Positions 3,492 to 51,813 of a stretch of DNA of 64,000 nucleotides are shown piece after piece. A model generated the notes under the pieces. That model ran no database searches, was not told the DNA's origin, and was given only the letters and a program-made list of their open reading frames with translations. The position numbers and the translations under genes are program-made. The stretch lies in contig CAKKNE010000002.1 in NCBI GenBank assembly GCA_918797485.1, positions 5,704,001 through 5,768,000 on the forward strand. Direction: 5' to 3'. Numbering within the stretch: position 1 is the stretch's first letter; each line of letters begins with the position of its first letter. The stretch is from Pelagomonas calceolata. Lineage: Eukaryota.

Positions 3492-4035
3492 GGTTTTTTA
3501 GCGCTCGGGGGCGCTCCGCGCTGGCCGCGGTGGCGTTTGGCGCGCTAAGTGCTCACCGCACTTCTTTTTGTTACGCGGCGAGGGCGGACCGGAGACACGC
3601 GCGGCGGCTCAGGGCAGTTCTTGTGGTCCTTGAGAACGCGGCGCGCTGGTCCCCGTGTTTGTTGGAGCCTCAGGCGCGTCGCTGCAGCCCTGTCTTTTTT
3701 GGCGCTCCGTGAAGCGCTAAGAGAGCCAAATCGGGTTCGGGGGCGCAGGCCTGCTCAGAGCGACACGCACGCTTGGGGGACACCCGACATTCAAATCTAG
3801 TTGACCAGTGCCGCCTGCGCTAGCGAAAGGAAGCAAAACCGCCGCCGCGCCCCGCGCGGGACGCGCTCTCTCTGTCAATCTGCGAGGATCTCGCCGAGGT
3901 GCGTCGACGGCGCACCCGGCGACGTTCCAGCTTCGAGGAGGGCGCACTTCCCGACGCCATCGACGCGAAGCAACGCCATCGACGCGTCGGCCTCACGAGA
4001 ATGAATCATTGAGTCACTGACACAAGAAATTACGT

Positions 4036-6931: not shown

Positions 6932-7349
6932 CTAGAGCGTGGAGCACGAAGGAATCTCCGTCCCGGGATCAACACCACCGTAGGGAGGATTAAAGTCTTC
7001 GGGGACCAGACCCTCGCCGGAGCAGCAGGCGCACTTGAGCGCTGTAGAAGAGACCTGTGCACAATCAACCAGTGAGTCCGTGATTTAGCAGCGGCAGAGA
7101 CGCGCCGTGACAGTTTTTGATTTATGCACTGGTAGAGACCGGCGGGTCGACGGTATCGTCCGCCCATATGATTTGAATACAGAGTCCGGGTTCGCCGTGG
7201 CTGCTTTCGCAGGCTTCACCCAACTCGTTGCAATCCGCATTGTAGTTCAACGGCTCAAAGGCCGACACAATCTCGCACTCGTCGCGTTGCGTGCCGCCGA
7301 AGCCGTAGGCGGTGCCGAGGCAGAGGGCGAGAATGAGGGCGCGAGCCAT
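6932..7349 (-). CDS. Small secreted cysteine-rich protein, 110 aa, two exons (7349-7140, 7054-6932) split by an introner
   Basis: Signal peptide MARALILALCLGTAYG. Removing intron 7139-7055 (GT...CACAG) bypasses the TAA at 7122 and continues ...DPP|VSSTALKCACCSGEGLVPEDFNPPYGGVDPGTEIPSCSTL*. Confidence 0.6.
7055..7131. mobile_element. Introner copy D (77 bp, degenerate); predicted intron 7055-7139 on the minus strand
   Basis: Ends CTGTGCACAATCAA / TTGATTTATGCACTG; TSD GAAGAGAC (7047-7054) vs GTAGAGAC (7132-7139), 7/8 match; subterminal AATCAACCAGTGAGTC and ACGCGCCGT shared with the other copies. Confidence 0.75.
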
Positions 7350-15088: not shown

Positions 15089-15471
15089 GCGCTCGCACCG
15101 CTGCTTCCGTGCACGGCTCGCGGTGCTGCGAGGCCAGCCGGCACAGCGGTATCTCTCAACACGATCCGACGCTGCGGAGCGCACGCAGGTGCGCCAAAAA
15201 ACGCGCCGCCGCCGCGCGAGGCAGCCAAAAAACCCGTTTAGTAGCTTTGCTTTTTTGGCGTGTTTTTGCTCCTATCCCTCGCGGGGGCGCCTCGGCCGCG
15301 CTCCAACCGCTCCCGAGCCCTCAAAACCAAATGCAACCAAATCGATTCCGTCCAAAACGCGCTGTCGGCACAGCGGTCCCAACACCGGTGCTCGTCATCG
15401 GCGGACTCCGAATCACGGTGCAAACCCTGAAATGCTGCCCCCGGGCAGGGATTCGACATGAGCGGCTGCCG

Positions 15472-18400: not shown

Positions 18401-21400
18401 GCCTCGGCTCGCCGCTCTACATCGGCGCGGACATCCACGGCTCCAAAACGCTCGATGGGGCCGTGGGACGAGGTGTACGTCACGACAAGGCTCTGGAGCC
18501 TGGCAGGTCGAGGTGCTCCACGGCATCCTCAGTCCGCCGCCGACGGCGCGCCGTCTGCTGTACCGACGCCGGTGCCGACCCCTCCGCCCTCGCTCGCCGA
18601 CGCTCACGTCGGCGCCGACGACGACGCCAGTACGAGGACAACCTCGTGGCCTACTACCCGATGACGCACGGCAAGCTGGACGACGCCCACACGAAATTCC
18701 ACGGCAAGGCATGGAGGCCCGAGCAACCTGACGTTCCCGATTCCATGATGGTTGCCGCGGATCTGCGGCAGACCGACGCGCGCGACGGTCCCGAGGGCGC
18801 CGCGGTGGCGCTCAACAAGAGCTTTTACGAGTACATCGAGCTGCCCGACAACGTGACGAGGTCCATCTCCGGGGACCGGCCGAGGACGGTCTGTCTCTGG
18901 GCGCGGATCGACAAGTGGAAGAACGCCCGGATCTTCGAGTACGGCAGAAAGGCGCCCCAGGGAGAGCTGTTCGGCCTGCGCACCTGGAACGTCCCGGGCG
19001 AGTTTGCGGTCGAAGTGCCATGGAACGTTCGGAACCATTGGGACAATCGAAACGTCAACCTGAGCACGAACGTCAGCATAACGCAGGCGCCGACGCCATC
19101 GCCCCGCGCCTCAGCCGACGCTGGAACCAGGCATGAGCCGCCGACTTGACGCCACCGGCGAGACTACGGCGGCCCCCACGCCGCAGAGCCCGTGGGTGGA
19201 AACGTGGCACCACTACTGCGTGGACGACGCCGCGGAGCCGCACCCGAAGGGAGGAAGGATCGGTACCTCCCAGGGAACGTGACCCTACGTGGACGGCCGC
19301 AAGGAGGGGTTCTGGAAGAACGCGACCGTCAACACGAGCCTCGGCTCGCCGCTCTACATCGGCGCGGACATCCCGCCCAAAACGCTCGATGGGGCCGTGG
19401 ACGAGGTGTACGCGTCTACGACAAGGCTCTGGCGCCTGGCAGGTCGAGGTGCTCCACGGCATCCTCAGTCCGCCGCCGACGGCCGCGCCGTCTGCTGTAC
19501 CGACGCCGGTGCCGACCCCTCCGCCCTCGCTCTCGCCGACGCTCACGCCGGCGCCGACGACGCCGCCAGTACGAGGACAACCTCGTGGCCTACTACCCGA
19601 TGACGCACGGCAAGCTGGACGACGCCCACACGAAATTCCACGGCAAGGCATGGAGGCCCGAGCAACCTGGCGTTCCCGATTCCATGATGGTTGCCGCGGA
19701 TCTGCGGCAGACCGACGCGCGCGACGGTCCCCAGGGCGACGCGGTGGCGCTCAACAAGAGCTTTTACGAGTACATCGAGCTGCCCGACAACGTGACGAGG
19801 TCCATCTCCGGGGACCGGCCGAGGACGGTCTGTCTCTGGGCGCGGATCGACAAGTGGAAGAACGCCCGGATCTTCGAGTACGGCAGAAAGGCGCCCCAGG
19901 GAGAGCTGTTCGGCCTGCGCACCTGGAACGTCCCGGGCGAGTTTGCGGTCGAAGCGCCATGGAACGTTCGGAACCATTGGGACAATCGAAACGTCAACCT
20001 GAGCACGAACGTCAGCATAACGCAGGCGCCGACGCCATCGCCGACGACGCCTCAGCCGACGCTGGAACCAGGCATGAGCCGCCGACTTGACGCCACCGGC
20101 GAGACTACGGCGGCCCCCACGCCGCAGAGCCCGTGGGTGGAAACGTGGCACCACTACTGCGTGACGTACGCCGCGGAGCCGCACCCGAAGGAGAAGGATC
20201 GGTACCTCCCAGGGAACGTGACCCCCACGTGGACGGCCGCAAGGAGGGGTTCTGGAAGAACGCGACCGTCAACACGAGCCTCGGCTCGCCGCTCTACATC
20301 GGCGCGGACATCCCGCCCAAAACGCTCGATGGGGCCGTGGGACGAGGTGTACGTCTACGACAAGGCTCTGGAGGCCTGGCAGGTCGAGGTGCTCCACGGC
20401 ATCCTCAGTCCGCCGCCGACGGCCGCGCCGTCTGCTGTACCGACGCCGGTGCCGACCCCTCCGCCCTCGCGCTCGCCGACGCTCACGCCGGGCGCCGACG
20501 ACGCACGAGTACGAGGACAACCTCGTGGCCTACTACCCGATGACGCACGGCAAGCTGGACGACGCCCACACGAAATTCCACGGCAAGGCATGGAGGCCCG
20601 AGCAACCTGACGTTCCCGATTCCATGATGGTTGCCGCGGATCTGCGGCAGACCCGCGCGCGACGGTCCCGAGGGCGCCGCGGTGGCGCTCAACAAGAGCT
20701 TTACAGTACATCGAGCTGCCCGACAACGTGACGAGGTCCATCTCCGGGGACCGGCCGAGGACGGTCTGTCTCTGGGCGCGGATCGACAAGTGGAAGAACG
20801 CCCGGATCTTCGAGTACGGCAGAAAGGCGCCCCAGGGAGAGCTGTTCGGCCTGCGCACCTGGAACGTCCCGGGCGAGTTTGCGGTCGAAGTGCCATGGAA
20901 CGTTCGGAACCATTGGGACAATCGAAACGTCAACCTGAGCACGAACGTCAGCATAACGCAGGCGCCGACGCCATCGCCGACGACGCCTCAGCCGACGCTG
21001 GAACCAGGCATGAGCCGCCGACTTGACGCCACCGGCGAGACTACGGCGGCCCCCACGCCGCAGAGCCCGTGGGTGGAAACGTGGCACCACTACTGCGTGA
21101 CGTACGCCGCGGAGCCGCACCCGAAGGAGAAGGATCGGTACCTCCCAGGGAACGTGACCCTCTACGTGGACGGCCGCAAGGAGGGGTTCTGGAAGAACGC
21201 GACCGTCAACACGAGCCTCGGCTCGCCGCTCTACATCGGCGCGGACATCCACGGCTCCAAAACGCTCGATGGGGCCGTGGACGAGGTGTACGTCTACGAC
21301 AAGGCTCTGGAGGCCTGGCAGGTCGAGGTGCTCCACGGCATCCTCAGTCCGCCGCCGACGGCCGCGCCGTCTGCTGTACCGACGCCGGTGCCGACCCCTC

Positions 21401-24400
21401 CGCCCTCGCTCTCGCCGACGCTCACGTCGGCGCCGACGACGCACGAGTACGAGGACAACCTCGTGGCCTACTACCCGATGACGCACGGCAAGCTGGACGA
21501 CGCCCACACGAAATTCCACGGCAAGGCATGGAGGCCCGAGCAACCTGACGTTCCCGATTCCATGATGGTTGCCGCGGATCTGCGGCAGACCGACGCGCGC
21601 GACGGTCCCCAGGGCGACGCGGTGGCGCTCAACAAGAGCTTTTACGAGTACATCGAGCTGCCCGACAACGTGACGAGGTCCATCTCCGGGGACCGGCCGA
21701 GGACGGTCTGTCTCTGGGCGCGGATCGACAAGTGGAAGAACGCCCGGATCTTCGAGTACGGCAGAAAGGCGCCCCAGGGAGAGCTGTTCGGCCTGCGCAC
21801 CTGGAACGTCCCGGGCGAGTTTGCGGTCGAAGTGCCATGGAACGTTCGGAACCATTGGGACAATCGAAACGTCAACCTGAGCACGAACGTCAGCATAACG
21901 CAGGCGCCGACGCCATCGCCGACGACGCCTCAGCCGACGCTGGAACCAGGCATGAGCCGCCGACTTGACGCCACCGGCGAGACTACGGCGGCCCCCACGC
22001 CGCAGAGCCCGTGGGTGGAAACGTGGCACCACCGCGTGCGTGACGCCGCGGAGCCGCACCCGAAGGAGAAGGATCGGTACCTCCCAGGGAACGTGACCCA
22101 CGTGGACGGCCGCAAGGAGGGGTTCTGGAAGAACGCGACCGTCAACACGAGCCTCGGCTCGCCGCTCTACATCGGCGCGGACATCCACGGCTCCAAAACG
22201 CTCGATGGGGCCGTGGACGAGGTGTACGTCTACGACAAGGCTCTGGAGGCCTGGCAGGTCGAGGTGCTCCACGGCATCCTCAGTCCGCCGCCGACGGCCG
22301 CGCCGTCTGCTGTACCGACGCCGGTGCCGACCCCTCCGCCCTCGCTCTCGCCGACGCTCACGTCGGCGCCGACGACGCACGAGTACGAGGACAACCTCGT
22401 GGCCTACTACCCGATGACGCACGGCAAGCTGGACGACGCCCACACGAAATTCCACGGCAAGGCATGGAGGCCCGAGCAACCTGACGTTCCCGATTCCATG
22501 ATGGTTGCCGCGGATCTGCGGCAGACCGACGCGCGCGACGGTCCCGAGGGCGCCGCGGTGGCGCTCAACAAGAGCTTTTACGAGTACATCGAGCTGCCCG
22601 ACAACGTGACGAGGTCCATCTCCGGGGACCGGCCGAGGACGGTCTGTCTCTGGGCGCGGATCGACAAGTGGAAGAACGCCCGGATCTTCGAGTACGGCAG
22701 AAAGGCGCCCCAGGGAGAGCTGTTCGGCCTGCGCACCTGGAACGTCCCGGGCGAGTTTGCGGTCGAAGTGCCATGGAACGTTCGGAACCATTGGGACAAT
22801 CGAAACGTCAACCTGAGCACGAACGTCAGCATAACGCAGGCGCCGACGCCATCGCCGACGACGCCTCAGCCGACGCTGGAACCAGGCATGAGCCGCCGAC
22901 TTGACGCCACCGGCGAGACTACGGCGGCCCCCACGCCGCAGAGCCCGTGGGTGGAAACGTGGCACCACTACTGCGTGACGTACGCCGCGGAGCCGCACCC
23001 GAAGGAGAAGGATCGGTACCTCCCAGGGAACGTGACCCTCTACGTGGACGGCCGCAAGGAGGGGTTCTGGAAGAACGCGACCGTCAACACGAGCCTCGGC
23101 TCGCCGCTCTACATCGGCGCGGACATCCACGGCTCCAAAACGCTCGATGGGGCCGTGGACGAGGTGTGCGTCACGACAAGGCTCTGGGCGCCTGGCAGGT
23201 CGAGGTGCTCCACGGCATCCTCAGTCCGCCGCCGACGGCGCGCCGTCTGCTGTACCGACGCCGGTGCCGACCCCTCCGCCCTCGCTCGCCCGGCTCACGT
23301 CGGCGCCGACGACGCACGAGTACGAGGACAACCTCGTGGCCTACTACCCGATGACGCACGGCAAGCTGGACGACGCCCACACGAAATTCCACGGCAAGGC
23401 ATGGAGGCCCGAGCAACCTGACGTTCCCGATTCCATGATGGTTGCCGCGGATCTGCGGCAGACCGACGCGCGCGACGGTCCCCAGGGCGACGCGGTGGCG
23501 CTCAACAACAGCAAGTACGAGTACATCGAGCTGCCCGACAACGTGACGAGGTCCATCTCCGGGGACCGGCCGAGGACGGTCTGCCTCTGGGCGCGGATCG
23601 ACAAGTGGACGAACAAAGCCCGGATCTTCGAGTACGGCAGAAAGGCGCCCCAGGGACAGCTGTTCGGCCTGCGCACCTGGAACGTCCCGGGCGCGCTTAC
23701 GGTCGAAGTGCCATGGAACGTTCGGAACCATTGGGACAATCGAATCAACGTCGTCCTGAGCAGGAACGTCAGCATGACGCCGGTGCCGACGTCAATTCCG
23801 ACATCTCTGCCGACCGAATCGACGGCACCAGAGCGCCGCCGCCGACTTGACGCCACCGACAGCGACAGCGACAACGCCGCCGCCGGCGCCACGCCGTCGG
23901 ACCCGTGGGTGGAAACGTGGCACCACTACTGCGTGACGTACGCCGCGGAGCCGCACCCGAAGGAGAAGGATCGGTACCTCCCAGGGAACGTGACCCTCTA
24001 CGTGGACGGCCGCAAGGAGGGGTTCTGGAAGAACGCGACCGTCAACACGAGCCTCGGCTCGCCGCTCTACATCGGCGCGGACATCCACGGCTCCGAAACG
24101 CTAGATGGGGCCGTGGACGAGGTGTACGTCTACGACAAGGCTCTGGAGGCCTGGCAGGTCGAGGTGCTCCACGGCATCCTCAGTCCGCCGCCGACGGCCG
24201 CGCCGTCTGCTGTACCGACGCCGGTGCCGACCCCTCTGCCGTCGGCCCCGCCGACGATCTCGCTTCCCCCGACGGCGCACGCCTACGAGTACGGCCTCGT
24301 GGCGTACTACCCGATGGACGAGGGCTCGCTGGCGGACGCCCACGACGGCGCCCACGCCGGCCGGGGCTGCAACGCCGCGGCCTGCGAGCCCGAGCAGACC

Positions 24401-27400
24401 CTGGCCACCACGCTCGCGCGCGACGTCGTCCAGGACGCGGTGGCGCTCGACGCGACCGCGAACCAGTTCATCCGGCTGCCGTACGCCACAACGGTGCCCA
24501 TCTCCGAGGATAACCCGCGGACCGTCTGCCTCTGGGCCCGGATCGACGCGTGGGCGGACAACGCCCGGCTCTTCGAGTACGGTAAGGGTCCGACGCAGCG
24601 CTTCGGCCTGCGCACCTACAAGACCCCGGGGCGCTTCTCGGTCATTTCGCACGATCCGAAGCGGCCGAGCACGAACGTCACGGTCGACCTCAACGCCAGC
24701 CGCCTCGTCGCGCCGCGGCCGACGCCGCGGCCGACGATACGAGGCCGCCGCCTCGACGGCACCGGCGAGACGCCGTTCCCTACGGCGGCCCCCACGCCGA
24801 ACCCCACAGCGACCCCCACAACGCCGCCGAACCCCTGGGTGGCCACGTGGCACCACTACTGCGTGACGTACGCCGCGGACCGCGCGAAGCGCAATCGGGC
24901 GAACGTGACCTTCTACGTGGACGGCGTCGCGGAGAAGACCTGGAACGCGACCGTCAACACGAGCGCGTCGCCGCTCTTCATCGGCGCGGACGTCCTCGGA
25001 ACGCACACGCTCGCCGGCGCCGTCGACGAAGTATATGTATATGAGAAGGCGCTGGACGCCTGGCAGGTCGGCGTGCTCTACGGCATCGTCAGCCCGCCGC
25101 CGACGGCCGTGCCCACCGGCGCCCCGACGAGCGCGCCGACGGGCCTCCCGACGCCGCAGCCGAGCCCGGCCCCGACGTCGCACCCGTCGGCCTCGCCCGC
25201 GCCGTCGCGCTACTTCCTCGAGGCCGCGCTCGTCGCGCACTACGGCATGGACGGCGGCGTCGCCGTCGACGACCACGGCCCCTTCGGCAACGCGACCTAC
25301 GTCGAGGGCCGGACGCGCAAGGACACGGCCCTCGACGGCACGGACGCCCTGAACGTGACGGGCGCGCGGAAGGGCGTGCGCCTGCCCGCCGGCGTCACGC
25401 GCCGCATCCTCGGGGGGCGCGAGCGGGGGGTCTGCCTCTGGGCGCGCGTCGACAAGTGGCGCAAGGCCGCGCTCTTCGGCTACGGGGCGGCCGCCACCGG
25501 AGGAAGCGCCACGGGCGCGCCTGGTAAACCGGAGGCCTTCGGCCTCGCCGTCGACGACGACGTAGGTTTCGTCGCTTTGGACTTCGGCGACGGCTATCCC
25601 GTAAAGGCGGAGGTCCCCGCGCGCGCCGGCCAGTGGCACCACTACTGCCTCGTTTATGATGACGGGAACGCCACGCTCTACTACGATAGCGTCATTCAGA
25701 AGACGACGAAGATCGCGCTCAACACGAGCAACAGCTCGCAGTTCCACCTCGGCGCGGGTTTGGATGGGGCCGACGCTCTGGATGGTTCCATCGACGAGGT
25801 TTATATCTACGAGGAGGCCCTGACCCAGGACGCCATCGATTTAATCTACTCGCGCGTGACGAGCCCGCCTTCCTCGGTGCCGTCGCCGGAGCCGTCCTCG
25901 ATGCCGTCGCGGGCACCAACGTCGCTGCCGACGGGCGTCCCGACGTCAGCGCCTTCACCAATGCCGTCGTCCATGCCGACGACGGCCGTGCCCACGTCTA
26001 AGCCGTCGGCGCCCCCGACGGCCGCGCCGACGCCGGCGACGCCCGAGCCCACGGGCGCGCCCAGCGAGGCGCCGTCGGCCATGCCGACGGTCGAGGGCTT
26101 GGGTGTGGCGGGCACGTTGAGGGCCGTGGCGCTGCCGCAGGCTTGTGACGATGCGGCGTTCTTAGGGGCCGTCGAGGCCGCGCTCGTCGCCGCGACGAAC
26201 GCGTCGCGCGCCGACGTGCGCTGTGTTGGATATGCCTGGACGCGGTCCGATTTATATTGGGGGCGGCGCCTCCAGGGCAGCGAGGGCGAGGGCGGGAAGC
26301 TCCCGGAGACGGCGGTCCCGACGAGCGTGCCCACTTCCAATCCTTCGGCGCTGCCGTCGCCGAAGCCGTCGCGCGGGCCGACGGCCGTGCCCACGTCAAT
26401 ACCTTCACCCGTACCGACGGCGTCGCCGGCGCCCACGAGCCTCGAGGCCTTCGAGCTCGACTACCGCGTCCACGCGAGCTACGCGCGGCACCCCGCCATC
26501 CGGGCGGAGACCTTCGACGACGAGGTCAAGACCATGATCAACGCGGCGATCGAGCGGGGCGTTTTTGTGGACGTGTTTAACAAAGAGAAGGTCACGGCCG
26601 AGGTCCAGACCGTGGAGACCGCGGCCATCTACCGGACGGTGGCGCCGTCGCCGGCGCCGTCGTTAGCTCCAACCACAACAGGCTATAGACTCGCCGGCAT
26701 CCTCTCCGCCGAGGTCGTGGGCGGCGACGAGGGCTTCGTCGAGGCCCCCATCGAGACGCTCGTCAACCTCACGAAGCCTCTGATCGTCAAGCTCAAGACG
26801 CGGCCGAGCGCCGACGTGGCCGTGACGTTGACGGCGGCCGGCACGGGCAGCGCGCTCCGCTTTTATGAGGAGGATTCAAAACGGCCGGGCTTCGCGCTCG
26901 CGTCCGACCCTGGTAGTACGACGTCCACGAAGACCATTCCGTCAAATACGACAACTCTCACGGTCATCGCCGGGGCGCTGCGGGACCGGGTCAACTCGGG
27001 GACGAGCTTCAGCCAGACCGTTGAGATCAGTCTCGATTCGGAAGACCCGAACTATTGTTGCGGGCGGCACACGGCCTCGTTTGAGCTCGAGGTCGGCGAC
27101 GTGGACACGTCGCTTATTAGTACGGGCAAGTTCCTGTCCAAAGTTCCGCCCGTGACGTCCGGGGACGGTGGTGCTACGACCATGAAGCTCGACGAGAACG
27201 CCGCGACGTACCAGTTCACGGTCTCGCTGACCTCGAAGCCCTTCCACCGCGTCGGGCTCGAGGTGCTGGGCGACGTCGACGCGTTTTCGGACATTACGTA
27301 TGGCGACGTCGACGAGCGGGTCTACAATCCGGAGCGGTTAGTTTTTGTGGATCCCGACGACTGGGCCGCGCCGGTGACCTGGAGCTTCCACATTGAAGAC

Positions 27401-30400: not shown

Positions 30401-33400
30401 CTGGGCGGCCAGATGGCGGGCACCGTCGGCGGTTTAGCGACGGCGATGATCGCCAAGGCGTATGGGGGCCAATCGCAAAGTGTGGTCAGCGACAACCTGG
30501 AATTGACGGCATTCAGGACGGACTGCGGGACGCGCGACTCGGCCTTCGGGCTGTCGACGGGCGGCGGCGTCACGGGCATGCCCGCGTCCGCCATGGACTC
30601 GGCGGGCGGCGGGTCGTGCGACGCGGCCGCGAGGAGACGGGGGCGGACGCGGCGGCGCTTACAAGATGATGATATTGCCGATGTTGATGTGAAAGTCGCA
30701 CAACTCAAGAACGTCTACGCCTCAGAGAGCGACAGCACGAATTCTGATCTAGTGCAGATCGAGATGGGCGCCGGCGGTTCGACCGTGAAGGTCGATGGAC
30801 TCGACGAACCCATCGTCCTCGTCATTGGCTTCGAGGCCTACGACCGCACGCTCGCGCCGGGCTTCGAGCCCGAAAAGGTCATCGACACGTGCTACAACCG
30901 GTCGCAAATCCTCAACGTGAACTGCTCGGTGCCCACGACGTTCAACTGCTCTATACCACAATTCATCGAGACGCAGTTCGGCAACAAGACGTTGTTAGCG
31001 CCAAAAAAGACGGGCGAGCCCTGCCCCGGCTCGCCGAAGGGCGAGCCGGTCGCTGTTACGGTGACCTGCCCCGGCAAGAAGCCCGAGTGCACGTTCTGGG
31101 ACCACAACAGGTCGGCGTGGGGCGGCGACGGCTGTCGGGTCGTGAACTACACGGGCTACAACGTGACCTGCGCCTGTACGCACTTGACGGACTTCGCGGG
31201 GAGTACGGGGCCCGTGGGTTCGACGGCCGGCGCCGTCGTCTCGACGTTACTATCGATGAATTTGGCGGACCTGCTGGAGGCGCTCGTCGTCCTGATCACA
31301 TTACTTGTTTGTTTGGGTTTCTTCGCTTTCTTGTACGCGAACGGCCAGTTCCAGGACGCGCAGGACGAAAAACATAGGAACCAGCTAAGGGATCGCGTCC
31401 TGCCGAAGGATGCGTTGCAAGCCGCGTCGCGGCCCGAAGTCATCTCGAGGGCGACGCAGAAGATCGCCATCGCCGCGGCCTTTAAGGCGAAGGACACGCG
31501 GCCCTGGTTGTTAGCTCCCTCCACTTATAGAGCGTACCAGCGGAAAGTGAGGCCGGTCAAGAACTGGGTCGCGACGGCCTTCCACGGCTTCGTGACGGCG
31601 ATGCGCCGCGAGCACAAGATCCTGCAGATCTTCTACCTGCCGGACGGGACGTTTACGCGGTCGGAGCGAGCCACGGTGTTGTGTGTTTTGGTCTTTTCTA
31701 CTTTGTTGGCCAATGCCTTCATACTGTCGGTCTACTCACATGCTCACATAGAAATACCAATCATAAACTGGAAGGTCCACGCCGCGAGCGAAGACCCGGT
31801 GAACGCCCAGATCGCGGGCGTCATCTTCAGTACCTTTTCCGCCCTCGTCGCGACGGGGACGTATCTATTGTTTGCATTCTTTTTCCAGAAGACGGGGGAA
31901 CCGACGGAAGAAGTGGATCACTTTTTGGGCGTGCCGGACGATAACCTGGACAAGGAGAATCGCGGTAGAGTGGCTCGTAGGCGAGAAGTACTAGCTGCCA
32001 TCGCCGAGTACGAGAACGCGTTAAATGCGCAGAAGCAGGTACCTAGGTTAGATAGAGAGGACCTCGAGAATAGCATTCATTACCACCCCAATGAAGAACT
32101 AGGGACTGCGCACCAGATGACGCAGCGCGAGCGCGTCGAGTTCGGGCAGCGCTGTTTGCGACGGAAGGAGGACGCGAGGAATGCTGTGGCTTTTAGGTAT
32201 CGCGCCGTCGCGAAGGCCCACCTCAAGTTCAACAACTACTCGAAGAAATGCGCGGAACGGCGCAAGGAGAAGGATAAGAAGGCCCTGCAGCACGACCGGT
32301 CGCTCTTGGCTCGGATCCTACCGTCGTGGCTCTATGTCTTCCTGGCGCCGAAGCCGCCGCCGCTCCATGTCTTGACTTTGGACGAGCGAGCTCTGTTCGA
32401 GGCGGAGGAGGAGGAGCTGAAGACCTTACCCTGGGACGCGAAGCTCGCTTTTAAGGCCCACGTGTCGCCGCTACGGCAGGCCATCAAGGTGCGACACAAG
32501 TCCTCGTGGTCCCCCGGGTGGAACAAGGTGTTTTTCGGCATGGCGGCGTTATGGAGTCTCTTCTGCGCCGTGATGGTCTTCGGTTTCTCCGTGCAACTGA
32601 ACAAGTGCGCGACCTGCGAGCGCCAGGACTTCTGGGTCTGCAAGGAGTGGGACGAGTGCGACAACCCGCCCTGCAGTTGTCTGCACACGCGGCCGAACGG
32701 CGCGGTCATTAACGACGGGACGGACCCGCCCAACCTACCGGCCTGGGCCGTGACGGACTGGGCCGCGAAGAAGGATCGGAACATATGCCGGTCGCCGGAG
32801 ACGTTTCTGCCGTGCGACTCCGCGCCGTCCACGTGTTACAACCTAAAGGAGTGCGAGGACCTCGCGAAGAAGGCCACGAAGCTGACCATGTGCGAGAAGG
32901 AGCGTTTGAAATGTTTCAGGATGACGGCTCGGCAGCGGAGCGGCGCCGCCGCGGTCGCCGCGCACGTCAAGCAGCTCCAGACGCTCGCCCCGAGCTGGGC
33001 GCCGGCGGACGTCGCGGACGCCGAGGCGCGCCGCGATGCCCTGAAGGACGAGGACACGGCGTGTCCCACGACGTGCGGCGCGAGCGTCTGCCCGCACACG
33101 CTGGCGCACTACTGCGGCAGTGCGGGCGCGAACGGCGGCAGCGTGGCGTGGCTGACGCAGGCTCTGATGTCCATCATCATCTCGCTGTTCATTTCCAATT
33201 CCATCTCGATCCTGATGAGCAAGGGCGTCCTACCGGCCTTTGCGCGGTTCTACGTTGGTAGAAGGGCCAAGGACCAGAAGGGAGCGCCGCCCGAAAAGAG
33301 GGGCATCATGGGCGTGTCCAACCGCGTGGACGAGACGGCGAAAAGAATCAGAGCCAAGTACGGCGCCAAGCCCGGCAAGGACTTTATGGATCGGCAGGCG

Positions 33401-34069: not shown

Positions 34070-34418
34070 CATATGTTTGTTAGAATTACTACCTACCAAA
34101 ACTCCGCCGCTCCAGCGCATCATGCCACCGCTCCCGCAGCGACGCGTTCACGACGCCGCCGACGCTGAATGCGGGGATGATGCGCAGCATCCTTAACGTC
34201 ACGGTCTCGGGGTACGTCTCGCGCAGCGTTGCGCGGGCGCCCTGTCCCCGAAGTAAACATATGTTTGTTAGAATTACTACCTACCAAAACTCCGCCGCTC
34301 CAGCGCATCATGCCACCGCTCCCGCAGCGACGCGTTCACGACGCCGCCGACGGAGAACGCCGGGATGATGCGCAGCATCCTTAACGTCACGGTCTCGGGG
34401 TACGTCTCGCGCAGCGTT
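34049..34418. repeat. Tandem duplication (~187-bp unit) of the junction between two convergent gene ends
   Basis: GGCGCCCTGTCCCCGAAGTAA...GCGCAGCGTT at 34049-34230 and again at 34236-34418. Confidence 0.9.
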
Positions 34419-37102: not shown

Positions 37103-38151
37103 ATGAAGGGCCACGGCGACGGCGGCATCGCCGGCATCGCGGCGAACGTCAAGAAGTCCAACATGCTGGCGCCCTGGCTAGCGTTTGGCATGCTATCTCT
37201 CGTGGTCTATGGCGCTTTTTCGGATGGTGACTTTTCGTTTCTGCTGACGTATGCGTCGCTGACAAGATGTTTTGCGGTGACGCTCTTAGTTGCTCAATTG
37301 CAACAGTCCAAGTCGGCGTCGGGCATCAGTTCGAAGACATTGCAATGCTACGTCTGCGTGTTTGCATCCCGTTTATTGAGCATCTTGCGCCACGAGGGCT
37401 ACCTCCCCTACGACCGGTCGGGCGACTGGATCTACCACTGCATCGAGGTGGGCGCCTTCCTCGCGACGCTTGCGGCGTTGGCGCTCGTGCACGGCCCGTA
37501 TTCATCAACTTATGATATTACGGCGGACGGCTTCGGCGCGCCGGGCGTGCCCTCGAATTTAGGAGCGTTGGTGCTCATCGTGCCGGCCTTTGTTGTAGCA
37601 TTACTAGTACACCCGGGGCTCAACAAGGACGTGCTGAGCGACGCGAGCTGGACCTACGCCATGTATTTGGAGAGTTTTGCGGTCCTGCCCTGTGTGGAAA
37701 TCAACCAGTGCGTCGGGTGCGGCCGTCCTGGCTCCGTCGAGCGGTGAGGAACCGACATCGCCACGCCATCGAGCAGGCGTCGCGTCGATGGCGTGGAGGA
37801 CGACGCGATGATTCAGCACGAACGCGCCGTAAAATTTTGATTTCCACACAGGTCCTGCCGCAGCTCTACCTCTTCCAGAAGCAAGCCAGACGCGTCGCGA
37901 CGGTGGATTATCTGGTGGGGCACTTCGTCGCGGCGCTGGGCTTATCAAGGGTGGTGGAGATGGGTTTCTGGATGAACTCGTTTCATGAATTAGCGGACCG
38001 CAACGGCAACCGCCACGTCGGCGTCCTGGTCTTGGTCGCACAGATGGTGCACCTCGTGATCATGGGCGACTTCTTCTACTTCTACCTCCGGTCCGTGAAG
38101 AAGGGCCTGCCCATCCAGCTGCCCTCGCCCTCGTCGGCGAACATGGTCTAG
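37103..38151 (+). CDS. ER lumen protein-retaining (KDEL/HDEL) receptor-like protein, 292 aa, two exons (37103-37681, 37852-38151)
   Basis: KSASGISSKTLQCY and WTYAMYLESFA|VLPQLYLFQK. The conserved ESxAxLPQL motif is restored only by removing intron 37682-37851. Confidence 0.88.
37690..37851. mobile_element. Introner copy B (162 bp); intron 37682-37851 on the plus strand
   Basis: Perfect 15-bp TIRs CTGTGTGGAAATCAA / TTGATTTCCACACAG; perfect TSD GTCCTGCC at 37682-37689 and 37852-37859. Confidence 0.93.
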
Positions 38152-38223
38152 TTTACTAAGGAGGCGTAGTCTTTACTTGCCAGATGGGAAGGGTCTCGAT
38201 CGATCGAGGGCGGGGCACGCGCC

Positions 38224-38451
38224 TCAGAAGCAGCTGAAGCAGCCCTTCTTCTGGGCCCGCTCGCTCTCGAGCTCCGCCCACTTGCCGTCGGCCACCTGAA
38301 CGATGCCCGGCTCCTCGTTCTCGAACGCCGTCCGCGCCTCGGCGTTCGAGAAGAGGAAGAGCTTCTCGTCGAGCACGACGTAGACGTCCGGATCCACCGT
38401 CACGAGCTTGCCCTTCGAGACTGCGTAGGCGCAGTAGCCGCCGTACTGCGG
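38224..38451 (-). pseudogene. 5'-truncated YHS-domain-associated protein fragment (missing from the ORF track)
   Basis: Manual translation gives PQYGGYCAYAVSKGKLVTVDPDVYVVLDEKLFLFSNAEARTAFENEEPGIVQVADGKWAELESERAQKKGCFSCF*. An in-frame TAA lies ~6 codons upstream and there is no ATG. Confidence 0.65.
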
Positions 38452-38471
38452 TCGCGAACGCCGGGTTTATT

Positions 38472-38810
38472 GTGTATCGACCCTTCGACGCGGAGGTGCA
38501 GGAGTTATTGCGGAATTGGCGCCGCGTCTACGACCTCGGCTACGCGAAGAAGGTCAGCGTCGACCAGCCGTCGCTCTGGATCGCCCAGCGCAACACGCCG
38601 AACCTGCGGATCCAGGTCCTCGACGTGACGATGTCCTGCCGCGTCCACGACAGCTTCTCGCAGTGTGGGCGCTTCTCGGCGCGGCCCGCGAACTTCGTCA
38701 CGGAGCACACGCGGCGCGCGAAGGCCTGCGTGCTGATCCATGGGCATAACTTGTCGGCGTCGCCGGCGCGGCGCCCGCATCGGTCGGGGAAAGTATCGCC
38801 CGCCGAATAA
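38472..38810 (+). pseudogene. 5'-truncated coding fragment, possibly glycosyltransferase-like C-terminus
   Basis: Coding-like GC3 pattern; ELLRNWRRVY...DQPSLW resembles the DQxxL motif of nucleotide-diphospho-sugar transferases. No ATG (GTG start only) and no room for a promoter. Confidence 0.35.
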
Positions 38811-38825
38811 CTTAGTATACGAAAC

Positions 38826-39665
38826 TTACGCCGTCGCCGTCGCCTCCAACAAAAGCGAGAAGTAGAAGTTCTGCGACGTCAGGTGCGAGCGGTCGACCTT
38901 GAAGCCGTTCTTCGCGAGCGCCGCGACGACGTCCTCCTCCTTGTGCAGGTACGCGCGCGTGGCCTTGGACGGGCCCGGGAACAAGCTACCGACCTTCTTG
39001 AGCACGGCGAGCTGCGGCGTTTTGGGAGCGAAGGACACGTAGATCTTGTCCTTCGAGAGCGCGCAGAGCTTGTCGACCAACCCAACCATCTTGTCCGTGG
39101 GGTAGTGGATCATCACATCAATACAGGAGACCGTGTCGTACTCTCCATTGACATTCTCCATGTCTGAAGTCTCGAACGTCGCCGTGGTGATACCCGCGGC
39201 CGCCGCGCGCTTCGACGCTTCGGTGGCCATGGCGTTCGAGATGTCCGAGGCCGACACGGTCGCGCCCTTCTGGGCTAGCGGGATGGCCAGCGAGCCCACG
39301 CCGCAGCCCAGGTCGCAGACCGTCCTCCCGTCGGCCTCGGCCCAGCTCAGCACCTTATCAATGGTCTGCGCGTGGCCGTCGCGGATTTCCTGCTGGACAC
39401 CATTGACATCATCCGACTCGGAGTAGATCTTGTTCCACCGCCCGAAGCCCTCCTCGCCGTTAAAGTAGCGCTCGACCTCCGTCTTGTCGTCGATGTCCCG
39501 GTTGTCCTCGGCGAGGAGCACGGCGAGGCCGCCGCCGACGGCCAGCGCCCCTAGGCCCTCGACGACGCCCAGCGCCTGCAGCTTCGTCGCTGGCCTCCTC
39601 GTTTGTGCGGGCGCTTGCAGCGCTGACGCGGCCGCGACGCAGGCGAGTATCCTCATGGCCGCCAT
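38826..39665 (-). CDS. chlM: Magnesium-protoporphyrin IX O-methyltransferase, plastid-targeted
   Basis: Bipartite signal AAASA-LQAP; DKTEVERYFNG.GFGRWNKIYS, VQQEIRDGHAQT, VCDLGCGVGSLAIPLA, CIDVMIHYP, FAPKT, FPGPSKATRAYLH. Confidence 0.95.
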   Translation of the reverse strand: MAAMRILACVAAASALQAPAQTRRPATKLQALGVVEGLGALAVGGGLAVLLAEDNRDIDDKTEVERYFNGEEGFGRWNKIYSESDDVNGVQQEIRDGHAQTIDKVLSWAEADGRTVCDLGCGVGSLAIPLAQKGATVSASDISNAMATEASKRAAAAGITTATFETSDMENVNGEYDTVSCIDVMIHYPTDKMVGLVDKLCALSKDKIYVSFAPKTPQLAVLKKVGSLFPGPSKATRAYLHKEEDVVAALAKNGFKVDRSHLTSQNFYFSLLLEATATA

Positions 39666-40057
39666 GGTAGCAGTAACACGTGTGACGTGTAGCTGCCGTG
39701 CAACCGCTTTATGAGCAGCAAGCACGGGTACGCACTAAATCCTTAAGCAAACGCAGCAACCGCGTCGGCTCCGAGGCGAGGTGGACGAGATAAAGAGGCT
39801 CGCAAACGCAATCAACTCAAGGGAGGATATGACGGGTTTATTTTGATCGGCAACAGCATGCATGCGGCGTGGCCAGGGGTCTAGTACGCCCCGTGGACGG
39901 ATGGGGCTGCTTTGCGCCCCATGCGCGGATGCTCGCTACCACCGCGCGGCCCGCGGGCGCGGCAAACCGCTTCTGTTCTGGCCCAGGCCAGGCGCACGAC
40001 TAGAAATAAATCACACACTAAAAAAGAAATCACACAAAGTCAGCTTAGAGACATAGA

Positions 40058-41528
40058 TCACTCGGCGCTCCCGTCGATGCCCACGGCGGCGTCGGCCGCT
40101 TCGCGGATTTGAGCGACCACTTCTTCATCGTTGAGCGCTAGGCAGACGGCCTGCATCTCGCGGTAGGAGCGCTTCGCCCCGCGCGGGGCGCCCGGATCGG
40201 CGACATGGAACGCGTAGAAGCGGTAGAGCGCGCACGCGTAGGCGTTCGCCTCCATCAGGCCCGGGAGCGCCGCCGCCTCGGCCTTCGTGAAGCCGAGGCA
40301 AACCGAGGCTGACCGCGGCCGGCCACCCTCGGGCGAGAGGCTCTCTAGCAGCACTGCCCGCCGGCGCCCGCGCGAGTAGGCCACCAGCATCTTGCGCAGG
40401 CACCTGTGTGGAAATCAACCAGTGCGTCGGGTGCACCCGACAATTCTTCACTAAGTCATTTCTCCGCGATGACGCGGCCGTGCTGGATCGGTCGAGCGGT
40501 GAGGAACCGGCATCACCACGCCATCGAGCAGGCGTCGCGTCGATGGCGTGGAGGATGACGCGGCGATCCAGCACGAACGCGCCGTAAAATTTTGATTTCC
40601 ACACAGGCAGGCACTCGACCTTGAGCGCCGCGCGCTGGGGCGTGCTCGACGCGAGCCGCACGGAATCTACGACGGAATCGTGGAGGAAACAGGCCCCAAC
40701 CGCCGCCGACGCGACGTCGAAGACCAGCGGGCCGCGCCCGACGTCCTCCCAATCCACGAACGTAGAGATCCCGGTCGCCATGGAGTGCAACAGGTTGTCC
40801 GGATACGGGTCCCCGTGGAGCACGCCGGCTGGCAGCTTCGCCGACGCGTCCCGGAGCGCCTGGCGGCAGCGCTCCAGGCGCCCGCCGTCGACGAGCGCCC
40901 ACCGCACGAAGCCCGTCGGCTCCGCGGGCTCCCACGGCCGACCCGCGCCGACGTACACGTCGAGCGGCGCCGCGCACCGGGCGTAGCGCTCGATCCAGCC
41001 GTCGCCCTCGATCGCGGGCAGGTCGTCGTCGTCGTCGACCGGCGACGCATGCACAGCGGCGAGCGCGGCTCCCACCAATTCGCAGGCGGCACTCTCGGGC
41101 AGCTCGCCGTCGTCCACCAGCAGGTTGCAGGCCCGGCCCGGCGCGAGCGCCATGGCCACGGCGCAGGCCGGGCGCCCCGTCGTCGTCGTGCAGTCGACCG
41201 CGTTCAGCGACCGCAGCGCCGGCGCGACGCCGGGCGAGGCCTTCGCCAGTCTCGACAGCACGTCGAGCTGCACGTCGGCGAGTTCGCGGCAGTCGTCGCC
41301 GACGCACGCTTTGAGGACCACGGGCGGCCCATCTCGTAAAACGCAGCGGTAGTTCGCGGCGCAGGCCCCGTTCGTCAGCTTGACGGCGAGCTCCGGCGCT
41401 CCTAAACCCAGCCGCACGAGCACGCGCGCGATCTCTTGGCCGCTCAATTCCGCGGCGTCGACAGCGGACTTATCGAACGCTCCCAAGGCCTGGAGCCGGT
41501 CGGCTGCTGCTTCGACGTGTCCTGACAT
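40058..41528 (-). CDS. Aminoglycoside phosphotransferase / homoserine kinase type II-like kinase, 419 aa, two exons (41528-40615, 40403-40058)
   Basis: G...ANY, VLK, LAAVH, LPAGVLHGDPYPDNLL (Brenner motif), FVDWED. Removing 40614-40404 gives LKVE|CLRKMLVAYSRG, joining ORF 40058-40390. Confidence 0.8.
40404..40606. mobile_element. Introner copy A (203 bp, longest); intron 40404-40614 on the minus strand
   Basis: Perfect TIRs identical to copy B; perfect TSD GCAGGCAC at 40396-40403 and 40607-40614 (GTGCCTGC on the coding strand). Confidence 0.93.
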
Positions 41529-41688
41529 GGCTCTTTTGTCTCTGTGTTGTGTGTTTTGGCCGGAGCAGCGAGCTCGCTGCGCGTGCTATTGCTGCGAGAT
41601 TGTGACTGTTTTGCCTCACGCCCAATAAAAGATGCGTTCGTGAGCCGTGTGCGCGCGCCGAGGCCCAAGCCAGCGGAGAGCGTGAGCA

Positions 41689-41712
41689 GCTAGCGGCATG
41701 TAAGACACTAGC
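41689..41712 (-). promoter_or_regulatory. Recurrent intergenic CTAG...CTAG motif
   Basis: Reverse complement reads GCTAGTGTCTTACATGCCGCTAGC (1 mismatch to the 9161 copy), 160 bp upstream of the kinase start. Confidence 0.6.
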
Positions 41713-42380
41713 AAGCACTCGGAACGCGCATGCAGCTGTTTGAGTATCGCTCCGTTCGCTAACGGTCCAAAGAGATCAATGGGACACGTACTGGGGGCCA
41801 AAAAAGGAATTTTTTTAATTCGCGGCCGAGGGCGCCCGTCGGTCTATGGCGGCCGCGCCGGTGGAATCCTGTCCATCCCTGCCCAAGAGGTCTCCCTGGG
41901 GTCGCTTAGGGTCGGTACTATACACGCGCAATCGCCTACACCGCATGCGCCGGCGCTTCAATCATTTTTGGCCGATTTCTCTCAGCAGACCACTCGGTTT
42001 AGCCATCTTTTGGCCATGGTTTGCTTCCAGAGCTCCCCGAGAGCAATAGGTTGCTGCGTCGATGGCGTGTGCGGTACAGTCGCTTACCCACTACCAGACC
42101 TACCTCGAGAGACTTCCAGGAGCCGATCTGCCCCTGAAAAAAGTGTGTAATTTGGACCCGATGTCGCCCCGTTCCCGTCGGATTGGAGAACGTTGCGGTG
42201 GGCACATCAAACTACATTAGGCACGTCGAGCAGACGCAGCTCGCGGCCAGAAAAATTATCTTACGATTTTTGCGGCGGTGCGGCGGCGGCGCGCCCTAGT
42301 TTAGCGCGTTGTGTGTAAGCGCGGAGTTTTATTCTTCTGCGCGTGGGGGTATGTGCTACTCTATAGTATAAGTAACTCGC

Positions 42381-48953: not shown

Positions 48954-49148
48954 TGGCGGCTAAGTACTTTTCTGTCATTCTCGCGACCTATATCCCGGGG
49001 GCTTTGCGCGTCGGCGTCGCCTGGCGTCGACTGCGTCGCGGTACATGGGTCACGTCTATGTCCACCTCGACGCTGTCTCGAGAGCCGACGCCGTCGCAGG
49101 AACGACGTTGCGTCGATGGCGTGAGGGCCGCGCGCGGCTCTAAATGCC

Positions 49149-50212: not shown

Positions 50213-51262
50213 ATGACGAAGTTCCTATTGACCACGGCCGGCGTGGCCTCGGTGCTCACGCTGCTCAGCGGAGGCCGAAGGTATCAGTCAGAGTCACATT
50301 TAGCCGCGCGCGACCTTCCCGCCCCCCCAGGCCCCAGGGGACGCCCCAGGCGACCGCTCGAACCTCACAGGCAGCGCCCCTTCCCGAACGACGGCGCCTA
50401 CCTCCGGGCCCTGGCCGACGTCCACGACTACTGCTCCGACGACTTCATGCGCCTCTGCACGTCGCAGGGCACGGAGATGGAGGAGGAGCCCGCCGACGAG
50501 GGACTCGTCGCGCCGGTCCGCCGCCTCGCCACGCTCCTGATTGACGTGCGCGCCGTCGACGCCGACGCCGAGGCCCACGGGCCCTCGCGCCACGCGGCGC
50601 CGCTCCGCCTCGGCCGCGGCCGCGACATGTGCCTTCGTGCCCACCTGTGCATAAATCAAAATTTCACGACGCGTTCCTCCGCGCCACACCTGCTCGATAG
50701 CGTGGCGGTGCCGATTCCTTCGCCACCCGACTCACTGGTTGATTTGCGCACAGGTGCCCACTATGACGAGCTCTCGACGGAGTGCAAGGCGGCTGTGGCC
50801 TTAGTAGACGACGCCGCGGAGGCCATGCCCCACCACGGCATGTGCCCGTTCATGATGTCTCTCTTCTTCGGCGCGCTGATCGGCATGGTCTTCCTCGTGC
50901 GTAAGGTGCGCGCGAAAAAGCAGATCATGAAGAAGATCCTCGAGGCCATCCGCGCGGACACGCAGCTCCAGGCCCTCGTCGAGGCCAAGGCCGGCGTCTC
51001 CGTGCCGGCGCCGTGCAACTGCAAGTGCGGCCTCCACTTCCGCGCCGCCGTGTTCGCGCTCCTCCTCAGCATGTTCGTCGGCGCGCCGCTGGTCATGGTC
51101 GTCTCCCTGATCGGCTGCTGCTGCTGCAAGTGCTGGAAGTGCTGCCGCGGCGGCTGCTGCGCCCCGAAGCCCGACGCGGCGCCGGAGGACTACGCCGCGC
51201 TCTCCGACACCGAGAAGCAGCAGCCCTCGAGCCTCCTCGCCGCGTCGCGCGACGAGAAGTAG
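50213..51262 (+). CDS. Hypothetical membrane protein with GLG1-like Cys motif, two TM segments and Cys-rich tail; predicted intron 50637-50753
   Basis: YCSDDFMRLC ... MCL|RAHYDELSTECK after removing the introner; CCCCKCWKCC tail. Confidence 0.65.
   Translation: MTKFLLTTAGVASVLTLLSGGRRYQSESHLAARDLPAPPGPRGRPRRPLEPHRQRPFPNDGAYLRALADVHDYCSDDFMRLCTSQGTEMEEEPADEGLVAPVRRLATLLIDVRAVDADAEAHGPSRHAAPLRLGRGRDMCLRAHLCINQNFTTRSSAPHLLDSVAVPIPSPPDSLVDLRTGAHYDELSTECKAAVALVDDAAEAMPHHGMCPFMMSLFFGALIGMVFLVRKVRAKKQIMKKILEAIRADTQLQALVEAKAGVSVPAPCNCKCGLHFRAAVFALLLSMFVGAPLVMVVSLIGCCCCKCWKCCRGGCCAPKPDAAPEDYAALSDTEKQQPSSLLAASRDEK
50645..50753. mobile_element. Introner copy C (109 bp); intron 50637-50753 on the plus strand
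   Basis: TIRs CTGTGCATAAATCAA / TTGATTTGCGCACAG (13/15 match); perfect TSD GTGCCCAC at 50637-50644 and 50754-50761; the reverse complement aligns in blocks to copies A and B. Confidence 0.88.
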
Positions 51263-51813
51263 ACACCGACGCTCATCTGAAGCCTACGCCCCATACGCCC
51301 CCTCGTTCCCTGTCCTGATTACGTAAAAAAGATTTTATATGACCCCAGAACCAGCGGCAGACTGATAACATATCCCGGCGATAACCAGGAGACAACAGCA
51401 ACCAAAACAAGCCAGGCTGATCGAGGTTGCCTGGCGTCGTCGAGGCGGCCCGCGAACCCACCGTCCCGTGCCGCCGCCCCGTTTCCTGCGCACGACTACT
51501 TAGGCAGAGAGAAACATTCGATTGAGACTTCGCACGAAGATCACTACCGCGAGACGTCGCGAAGCGCGGACCCGCACTATTTTTCGCAGATCGGATTCGC
51601 CTTCGCCTTCGCCGCGAACGCAAATCAAAAAGGCAGCCCGCGGCTGCAGAAATTGGTCCGCGCGCACGACCGCTGCGCAGAAATTGTTGCGCACAACAAC
51701 CGAAGCCAGGCAAGAAAAGCATGCCCCAAATCCACGCCCACGAGACGCGCGGCGCCGCCGCCTGGACGGCGGCCACGAAGTCTACCAGTAGCGAGGATCA
51801 TATTAAGAGGAGC

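What the first reader, a model, noticed from the sequence alone, without database searches (positions are those of the whole stretch)
37682..40614. Introner family: DNA transposons that become precisely spliced introns, in either orientation
Seen: copies at 37690-37851 and 40404-40606 share identical perfect 15-bp TIRs (CTGTGTGGAAATCAA) and each has a perfect 8-bp TSD. The upstream TSD copy starts with GT (donor) and the downstream TIR ends CACAG (acceptor). Splicing therefore removes the element plus one TSD copy and restores the pre-insertion CDS exactly (FA|VLPQL in the KDEL receptor; LKVE|CLRK in the kinase). The two copies sit in opposite orientations relative to their host genes, which works because both TIR ends present CAG. 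Established: this mechanism matches the introner elements described in the pelagophyte Aureococcus. Inference: this is a recently active family generating new introns. The four copies are the only introns I can find among ~30 genes.
Basis: partly seen in the sequence, partly recalled or inferred. Interest (0 to 1): 0.9.

Follow-up and report, generated by a model that had tools for sequence, protein, structure and literature searches.

The report
Known algal transposons that become introns
Short repeated DNA elements sit inside two genes of a marine alga and are absent from the genes' RNA reads, which restores the coding sequence exactly; they are likely transposon insertions removed by splicing, a process already reported in this alga and a relative, so the finding is real but ordinary.

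Summary
Real, but already known. Both copies have perfect 15-bp TIRs and 8-bp TSDs, with GT from the TSD and AG from the TIR. RNA data show both predicted junctions and DNA runs show neither. The spliced KDEL receptor is identical (292/292) to a protein annotated as Pelagomonas calceolata. Metagenome contigs of sister lineages are empty at both sites, and two carry a different insertion with the same TIR 96 bp further along the same gene. Introners are already catalogued for this species: 956 putative elements with TIRs (Guérin 2022) and 11 families, the largest 340 copies, 202 bp, 'co-opt 5' carry 3'' (Gozashti 2025). The either-orientation 8-nt-TSD pattern is credited in print to Aureococcus. 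Corrections: the four copies are not the only introns (an ordinary 90-nt intron is spliced), and current activity is not shown. No autonomous parent was found, and no genome was available. One extra I did not find in print: copy 3 is also skipped in antisense reads, and its TSD reads GT on both strands, but a reverse-transcription artefact is not excluded.

The parts
37690..37851 (+). Introner copy 1, 162 bp, perfect 15-bp TIRs; forward relative to its host gene
37682..37689 (+). Upstream TSD copy of copy 1; its first two bases GT are the splice donor
   Evidence: joint 37680>37851, GT..AG with cut +1
37852..37859 (+). Downstream TSD copy of copy 1, kept in exon 2
37103..38151 (+). ER lumen protein-retaining (KDEL) receptor gene, exons 37103-37681 and 37852-38151, 292 aa when spliced
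   Evidence: PF00810 on both exons; identical to P0087
40404..40606 (+). Introner copy 2, 203 bp, perfect 15-bp TIRs; reversed relative to its minus-strand host
40607..40614 (-). Upstream (host-sense) TSD copy of copy 2, supplying the GT donor
   Evidence: joint 40395>40607 with cut +8
40396..40403 (-). Downstream TSD copy of copy 2, kept in exon 2
40056..41528 (-). APH-family phosphotransferase (kinase-like) gene, 419 aa when spliced
   Evidence: PF01636; 413/419 identical to P0169
50645..50753 (-). Introner copy 3, 109 bp, imperfect TIRs, perfect TSD at 50637-44 and 50754-61 that reads GT on both strands; 117-nt intron, in frame and stop-free if retained
   Evidence: joint 50636>50754
7055..7131 (+). 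Introner copy 4, 77 bp, degenerate; TSD copies 7047-54 and 7132-39 differ at one base; predicted 85-nt intron in a small minus-strand gene; not covered by the RNA lays
50281..50370 (+). Ordinary 90-nt GT-AG intron, not of this family (refutes 'only introns')
   Evidence: 426 and 809 junction reads

Best explanation
The two elements are short repeats with 15-bp inverted ends and 8-bp flanking duplications that are skipped exactly in RNA, and they are most likely non-autonomous cut-and-paste transposons (MITE-type introners) that the spliceosome is inferred to remove. Inferred: a transposase encoded elsewhere cuts the target with an 8-nt stagger and inserts the element, duplicating the 8 bases. 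Shown: both ends of the element read ...CACAG outward, so an AG acceptor lies at the downstream end in either orientation; the upstream duplicate begins with GT; the RNA junction removes the element plus one duplicate and leaves the pre-insertion coding sequence. Inferred: insertions in exons persist only where the target begins with a usable donor. Shown: sister lineages lack these insertions and carry others of the same TIR family in the same genes. The host is Pelagomonas calceolata by protein identity, and the family probably corresponds to the published fam2 (hAT-like) and its relatives.
For: Anatomy. RNA: copy 1 joint in 93 (X21) and 17 (X24) raw reads, all on the host strand, and in contigs X5 and X9; copy 2 joint in contigs X5 (depth 419) and X9 (56); neither joint in DNA runs X2 or X4, and X2 contigs run into the elements with 0 differences. 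The unspliced KDEL frame stops at 37747 (214 aa); the spliced one equals the annotated protein, 292/292. Empty sites: L001, L002, L003 and L006 at site 1, L002 also at site 2. All 5 insertion sites seen at DNA level begin with GT on the host strand. Literature.
Against: All junction evidence is cDNA-based, and a hairpin flanked by 8-nt direct repeats is the same architecture that produced a reverse-transcription artefact in CD19; copy 1 folds with z -3.6. No transposase or autonomous element was found (no genome). The copy 2 joint was not among the rows listed for the raw reads (139 rows hidden) and rests on two contig runs whose RNA label is a guess. The match to published fam2 rests on length and mechanism, not on sequence.
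Confidence: 0.93

Rival explanations
1. The junctions are reverse-transcriptase template switches across the TIR hairpin between the 8-nt direct repeats ('falsitrons'), and the elements are simple MITE insertions that are not spliced in the cell.
For: Same architecture as the CD19 artefact (passages). Strong hairpins: copy 1 z -3.6, copy 3 z -4.3 sense and -3.8 antisense. Antisense reads also skip copy 3.
Against: Retention would truncate the KDEL receptor and frameshift the kinase (211 nt). Template switching does not need GT, yet 5 of 5 DNA-level targets begin with GT on the host strand. Single RNA contigs run through the joined form at all three laid copies. This rival remains serious only for the antisense skipping of copy 3.
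Confidence: 0.04
2. The elements are old introns into which a MITE later inserted, or introns spread by RNA reverse splicing rather than DNA transposition.
For: No transposase found. Reverse splicing has been proposed for fungal elements that lack TSDs and TIRs and recalled for Micromonas.
Against: Similarity ends exactly at the TIR and each flank is a locus-specific 8-bp duplication. Both orientations occur, which reverse splicing into sense RNA does not predict. Orthologues have no intron at these positions.
Confidence: 0.02
3. The boundary is different: a 16-bp TIR that includes the flanking C/G with a 6-bp TSD, so the transposase would not be hAT-like.
For: All 5 DNA-level targets are G......C, which both parsings explain equally.
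Against: Reads from other copies diverge immediately before 40404 (428 in X21, 223 in X24, table 7), so the flanking C is not invariant. An 8-nt TSD is the pattern reported for Aureococcus.
Confidence: 0.05

Closest known systems
Pelagomonas calceolata introner elements (Guérin et al. 2022, PMC9481584, Supplementary Note 3; Gozashti et al. 2025, PMC12130899, supplementary file sd07)
   Same: Same species by protein identity. Reported: intron length peak near 210 bp, 956 putative elements, GT/GC donors, AG acceptor, conserved TIR; fam2 with 340 copies, 202 bp, TIR 13, hAT, 'co-opt 5' carry 3''. Copy 2 is 203 bp and makes a 211-nt intron by that mechanism.
   Different: I could not see the published consensus or logo, so identity is not tested by sequence. 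In the parts I read, the 8-bp TSD, the two orientations and wild presence/absence are not spelled out for this species (TSD columns for fam2 are NA).
Aureococcus anophagefferens introner elements (Huff, Zilberman and Roy 2016; not held, seen only through other papers' passages)
   Same: One splice site carried, the other recruited from the TSD; 8-nt TSD; introns formed in either orientation; about 210 bp.
   Different: Different genus; sequence relationship of the TIRs not tested.
Polarella glacialis ILE classes 6, 8 and 10 (bioRxiv 10.1101/2020.10.14.339549, passages)
   Same: 8-nt TSD supplying the donor; either orientation.
   Different: Dinoflagellate; donors include GA; unrelated as far as tested (not aligned).
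Micromonas introner presence-absence polymorphisms (Simmons et al. 2015, PMC4540971, abstract only)
   Same: Lineage-specific insertions and possible hot spots seen in environmental sequences.
   Different: Green alga; 3-nt TSD for M. pusilla.
hAT-superfamily MITEs
   Same: 8-bp TSD and 10-25-bp TIRs.
   Different: No transposase seen. The TIR starts CT rather than CA/TA (the usual hAT start is recalled, not from a call).

Membership tests
Introner elements, TIR/TSD (Aureococcus) type | Repeated sequence whose similarity reaches the intron boundary and not the exons | tested here: met
   Copies 1 and 2 are 94% identical over 162 aligned bases; copies 3 and 4 are 84-87% to them; flanks unrelated
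Introner elements, TIR/TSD (Aureococcus) type | Removed from RNA at GT-AG ends, restoring the coding sequence | tested here: met
Introner elements, TIR/TSD (Aureococcus) type | One splice site from the element, the other from the TSD | tested here: met
Introner elements, TIR/TSD (Aureococcus) type | Intron formed in either orientation | tested here: met
   Copy 1 and the L001/L006 insertion forward; copies 2, 3 and 4 reversed
Introner elements, TIR/TSD (Aureococcus) type | Orthologous empty sites with a single target copy | tested here: met
   L001, L002, L003, L006 at site 1; L002 at site 2
Introner elements, TIR/TSD (Aureococcus) type | Insertion bias toward nucleosome linkers | not testable with these tools
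   Feature taken; no chromatin data
Published P. calceolata fam2 | Sequence identity to the family consensus | not testable with these tools
   TIR string not found in 12 of 14 supplementary files or in the cut file of PMC9860276; length and mechanism agree
hAT superfamily (non-autonomous) | 8-bp TSD and 10-25-bp TIR | tested here: met
   8 bp and 15 bp; definition
hAT superfamily (non-autonomous) | Autonomous partner with the same ends encoding a hAT transposase | tested here: inconclusive
   No genome; no transposase domain among 26 window ORFs scanned; no paired TIR with TSD in viral or prokaryote contigs
hAT Ac family | Target consensus nTnnnnAn | tested here: inconclusive
   T at position 2 in 5 of 5 but forced by the GT donor; A at position 7 clearly in 1 of 5 and ambiguous in 2; consensus

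The most novel reading that the evidence does not exclude
One insertion (copy 3) is a two-way intron: because both element ends offer CAG and its target reads GT on both strands, the same 117 bases are spliced from the mRNA and from an overlapping natural antisense RNA. More widely, the transposase may prefer palindromic G......C targets (C at position 8 in 5 of 5 sites against 26-27% background), which would pre-adapt the family to make donors on either strand, and wild Pelagomonas lineages are gaining different introns in the same genes.
Probability: 0.4. Interest if true: 0.45.

Novelty: already known. Interest (0 to 1): 0.2.

Why it matters
The mechanism of intron gain from MITE-type transposons matters, but it is established, and this species is already listed as carrying it. 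What the work adds is locus-level confirmation and a usable marker system: abundant ocean Pelagomonas lineages differ in which sites of the same gene are occupied, so insertion age, orientation bias, target preference and fixation could be measured from existing metagenomes. If antisense splicing of copy 3 survives direct RNA sequencing, it would be a neat natural test that one element is read as an intron in both directions.

Tried and rejected
Whole-genome copy count and parent search: no genome is held. Depth of DNA contigs on the elements is far above single-copy flanks, but the tool states this is no copy number, so none is given. Autonomous parent in viral contigs: 0 hits for a 21-base end pattern; 53 single hits for the 15-mer, of which 4 had a loose second end and none a TSD (2-3 of 8 matches); treated as chance. 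Prokaryote genomes: 1 hit, L134, a 35-base family end at the very end of a bacterial MAG contig; read as a chimeric assembly end, not horizontal transfer. X4 ('organism B') was laid in the hope of a different strain, but its listed pieces had 0 differences and low depth, so it gives no polymorphism test. The 73 distant loci (L008-L080, 46-54% protein identity) were scanned for the TIR only; a weak inverted match in L072 was not followed. The region 41688-42070 was checked as a possible longer parent and is not one. Huff et al. 2016 is not held. Supplementary Data 3 and Figure S3 of Guérin 2022 could not be seen (file cut, figure pages without text); they may already state the TSD and orientation details. 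Earlier findings of this scan: none. Paper searches with no hit: introner + antisense + both strands; Pelagomonas + promoter + motif + transcription start. No structure or complex prediction was relevant.
Full report
Observation. The sequence is as described. Copy 1 (37690-37851, 162 bp) and copy 2 (40404-40606, 203 bp) share a perfect 15-bp TIR and each is flanked by a perfect 8-bp duplication. The TIR occurs 6 times at up to 3 mismatches against a shuffle mean of 0.54. The copies are 94% identical over 162 aligned bases. Two older copies lie at 50645-50753 and 7055-7131. In all four, the host-sense upstream duplicate begins with GT and the downstream element end is CACAG. Hosts of copies 1 and 2 are a KDEL receptor (PF00810) and an APH-family phosphotransferase (PF01636).

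Splicing. Of 24 runs listed I laid 7. In stranded poly(A) reads the copy 1 joint (170 skipped, GT..AG) has 93 reads in X21 and 17 in X24, all from the host strand; both runs are one sample and 6-12% of each was read. Contigs of X5 and X9 show the joints of copy 1, copy 2 (211 skipped) and copy 3 (117 skipped); DNA runs X2 and X4 show none of them, and X2 contigs enter all three elements with 0 differences. The copy 2 joint was not among the rows listed for raw reads (139 hidden). Copy 4 was outside both lays. The spliced KDEL receptor equals P0087, named Pelagomonas calceolata CAH0369927.1, at 292 of 292 residues; the spliced kinase matches P0169 at 413 of 419. Against my reading: all this is cDNA, and a hairpin between 8-nt direct repeats produced a false intron in CD19 (PMC8240250, passages). 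The truncation that retention would cause and the GT at 5 of 5 DNA-level targets argue for real splicing in the sense direction.

Empty sites and parallel insertions. Of 80 metagenome loci, seven were close relatives. Six of the seven reach site 1 and all six are contiguous there: L001, L002, L003, L006 (77-93% DNA identity in aligned blocks) and the more distant L004, L005; L007 does not reach it. L002 is also empty at site 2. These four are genomic, since they include intergenic DNA or an unspliced element. L001 and L006 carry a different element (118 and 103 bp) with the same 15-bp TIR about 96 bp downstream in the same gene; its target again begins with GT, and the intron-side duplicate has drifted. 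Among 60 close KDEL proteins examined (7 and 53 listed members of four clusters that hold 134), 44 cover both sites: 26 are contiguous at site 1 and run into TIR-coded residues at the second site, 18 are contiguous at both (some are spliced models, so they do not count as empty alleles), and 0 carry copy 1. These are not independent samples. Of 12 kinase homologues, 5 run into a copy-3-like element at another position and 1 carries copy 2. So the insertions postdate the split from sister lineages, but no empty allele on a near-identical haplotype was seen; present-day activity is not shown.

Mechanism. Shown: element anatomy, junction position, both orientations, empty sites. Inferred: cut-and-paste mobilisation by a transposase in trans with an 8-nt stagger, spliceosomal removal, and selection for targets that begin with a donor. 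An 8-bp TSD and 10-25-bp TIR fit hAT (PMC8961557, passages), but no parent was found: no genome is held, no transposase domain appears among 26 window ORFs, and collection scans gave nothing usable. All 5 DNA-level targets end in C, against 26-27% for GT-starting 8-mers in the window; this was noticed after the fact and the sample is small.

What is known. Guérin et al. 2022 report an intron-length peak near 210 bp and 956 putative introners with GT/GC donors, AG acceptor and conserved TIR in P. calceolata (PMC9481584 passages and supplement 2 part 1; preprint passages). Gozashti et al. 2025 list 11 families for the species, with fam2 at 340 copies, 202 bp, TIR 13, hAT, 'co-opt 5' carry 3'' (PMC12130899 supplement rows; passages). 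Gozashti et al. 2022 mark the species as introner-positive (supplement rows; preprint passages). The Polarella preprint credits the 8-nt-TSD, either-orientation pattern to Aureococcus (passages). Presence-absence polymorphism of introners in environmental sequences is reported for Micromonas (abstract). I saw passages of a review (PMC11282704). Huff et al. 2016 was not held. The published consensus and logo were not visible, so family identity is not tested by sequence. With 16,667 genes at 0.45 introns each, 956 elements are a minority of introns, which agrees with the ordinary 90-nt intron found here at 50281-50370.

Most novel reading. At copy 3 the joint is read from both strands: 24 antisense and 14 sense reads in X21, 21 and 29 in X24, whereas the copy 1 joint and the ordinary intron show 0 wrong-strand reads among 93, 17, 426 and 809. 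An antisense RNA with 5' ends near 51283-51293 overlaps the gene (table 6). The target reads GT on both strands, so a 117-nt GT-AG intron exists in each direction. No empty allele appears in the DNA runs. A template-switch artefact remains open, because the hairpin is strong and copies 1 and 2 lack antisense coverage to serve as controls. A search for introner + antisense + both strands found no paper; most subscription papers are not searched.

Verdict. Observation confirmed, interpretation supported, already known in this species. Interest 0.2.

Noticed in passing
window 5092(-), 9162(+), 36759(+), 41711(-), 50103(+), 58208(-), 58772(+), 60275(-): An oriented motif of about 25 bp (core CTAGTGTCTTAC followed by GCTAGC) occurs 8 times against a shuffle mean of 0.18 (7 core matches against 0.08). 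At three genes with RNA data it lies about 10-40 bases upstream of the RNA 5' end, and it is kept in L001 and L003. It may be a core promoter element; one paper search found nothing.
   Followed up: partly
window 50637-50768: Sense reads across the copy 3 joint are few (14 and 29) compared with the upstream intron of the same gene (426 and 809), and 19 reads end at 50768. The retained form would be in frame without a stop. Partial retention, polymerase stalling at the hairpin or a coverage dip; unresolved.
   Followed up: partly
window 50293-51293, minus strand: An antisense RNA overlaps the plus-strand gene 50213-51262; no convincing ORF seen.
   Followed up: partly
window 15439-16804 and 16652-24485: A 78-bp tandem array followed by about nine near-identical 939-bp repeats inside a very long ORF region; the spacings vary by single bases and break the frame, which may be assembly errors.
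   Followed up: no
window about 32950-33050: About 100 extra bases relative to L002 inside the 3640-aa ORF, with no TIR; in-frame insertion or an ordinary intron, not tested.
   Followed up: no
window 34108-34229 and 34296 onward: The same stretch of L002 aligns to both places, suggesting a short local duplication.
   Followed up: no
window 3954-3989, 42055-42069, 49106-49123: Short matches (15-18 bp) to the element's internal hairpin sequence in intergenic or 3' regions; possibly relics or chance.
   Followed up: partly
L134 2639-2673: 35 bases of the family's end at the very end of a bacterial MAG contig; likely a chimeric assembly end.
   Followed up: yes
L072 7314-7343: Weak inverted match to the TIR in a distant locus.
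   Followed up: no
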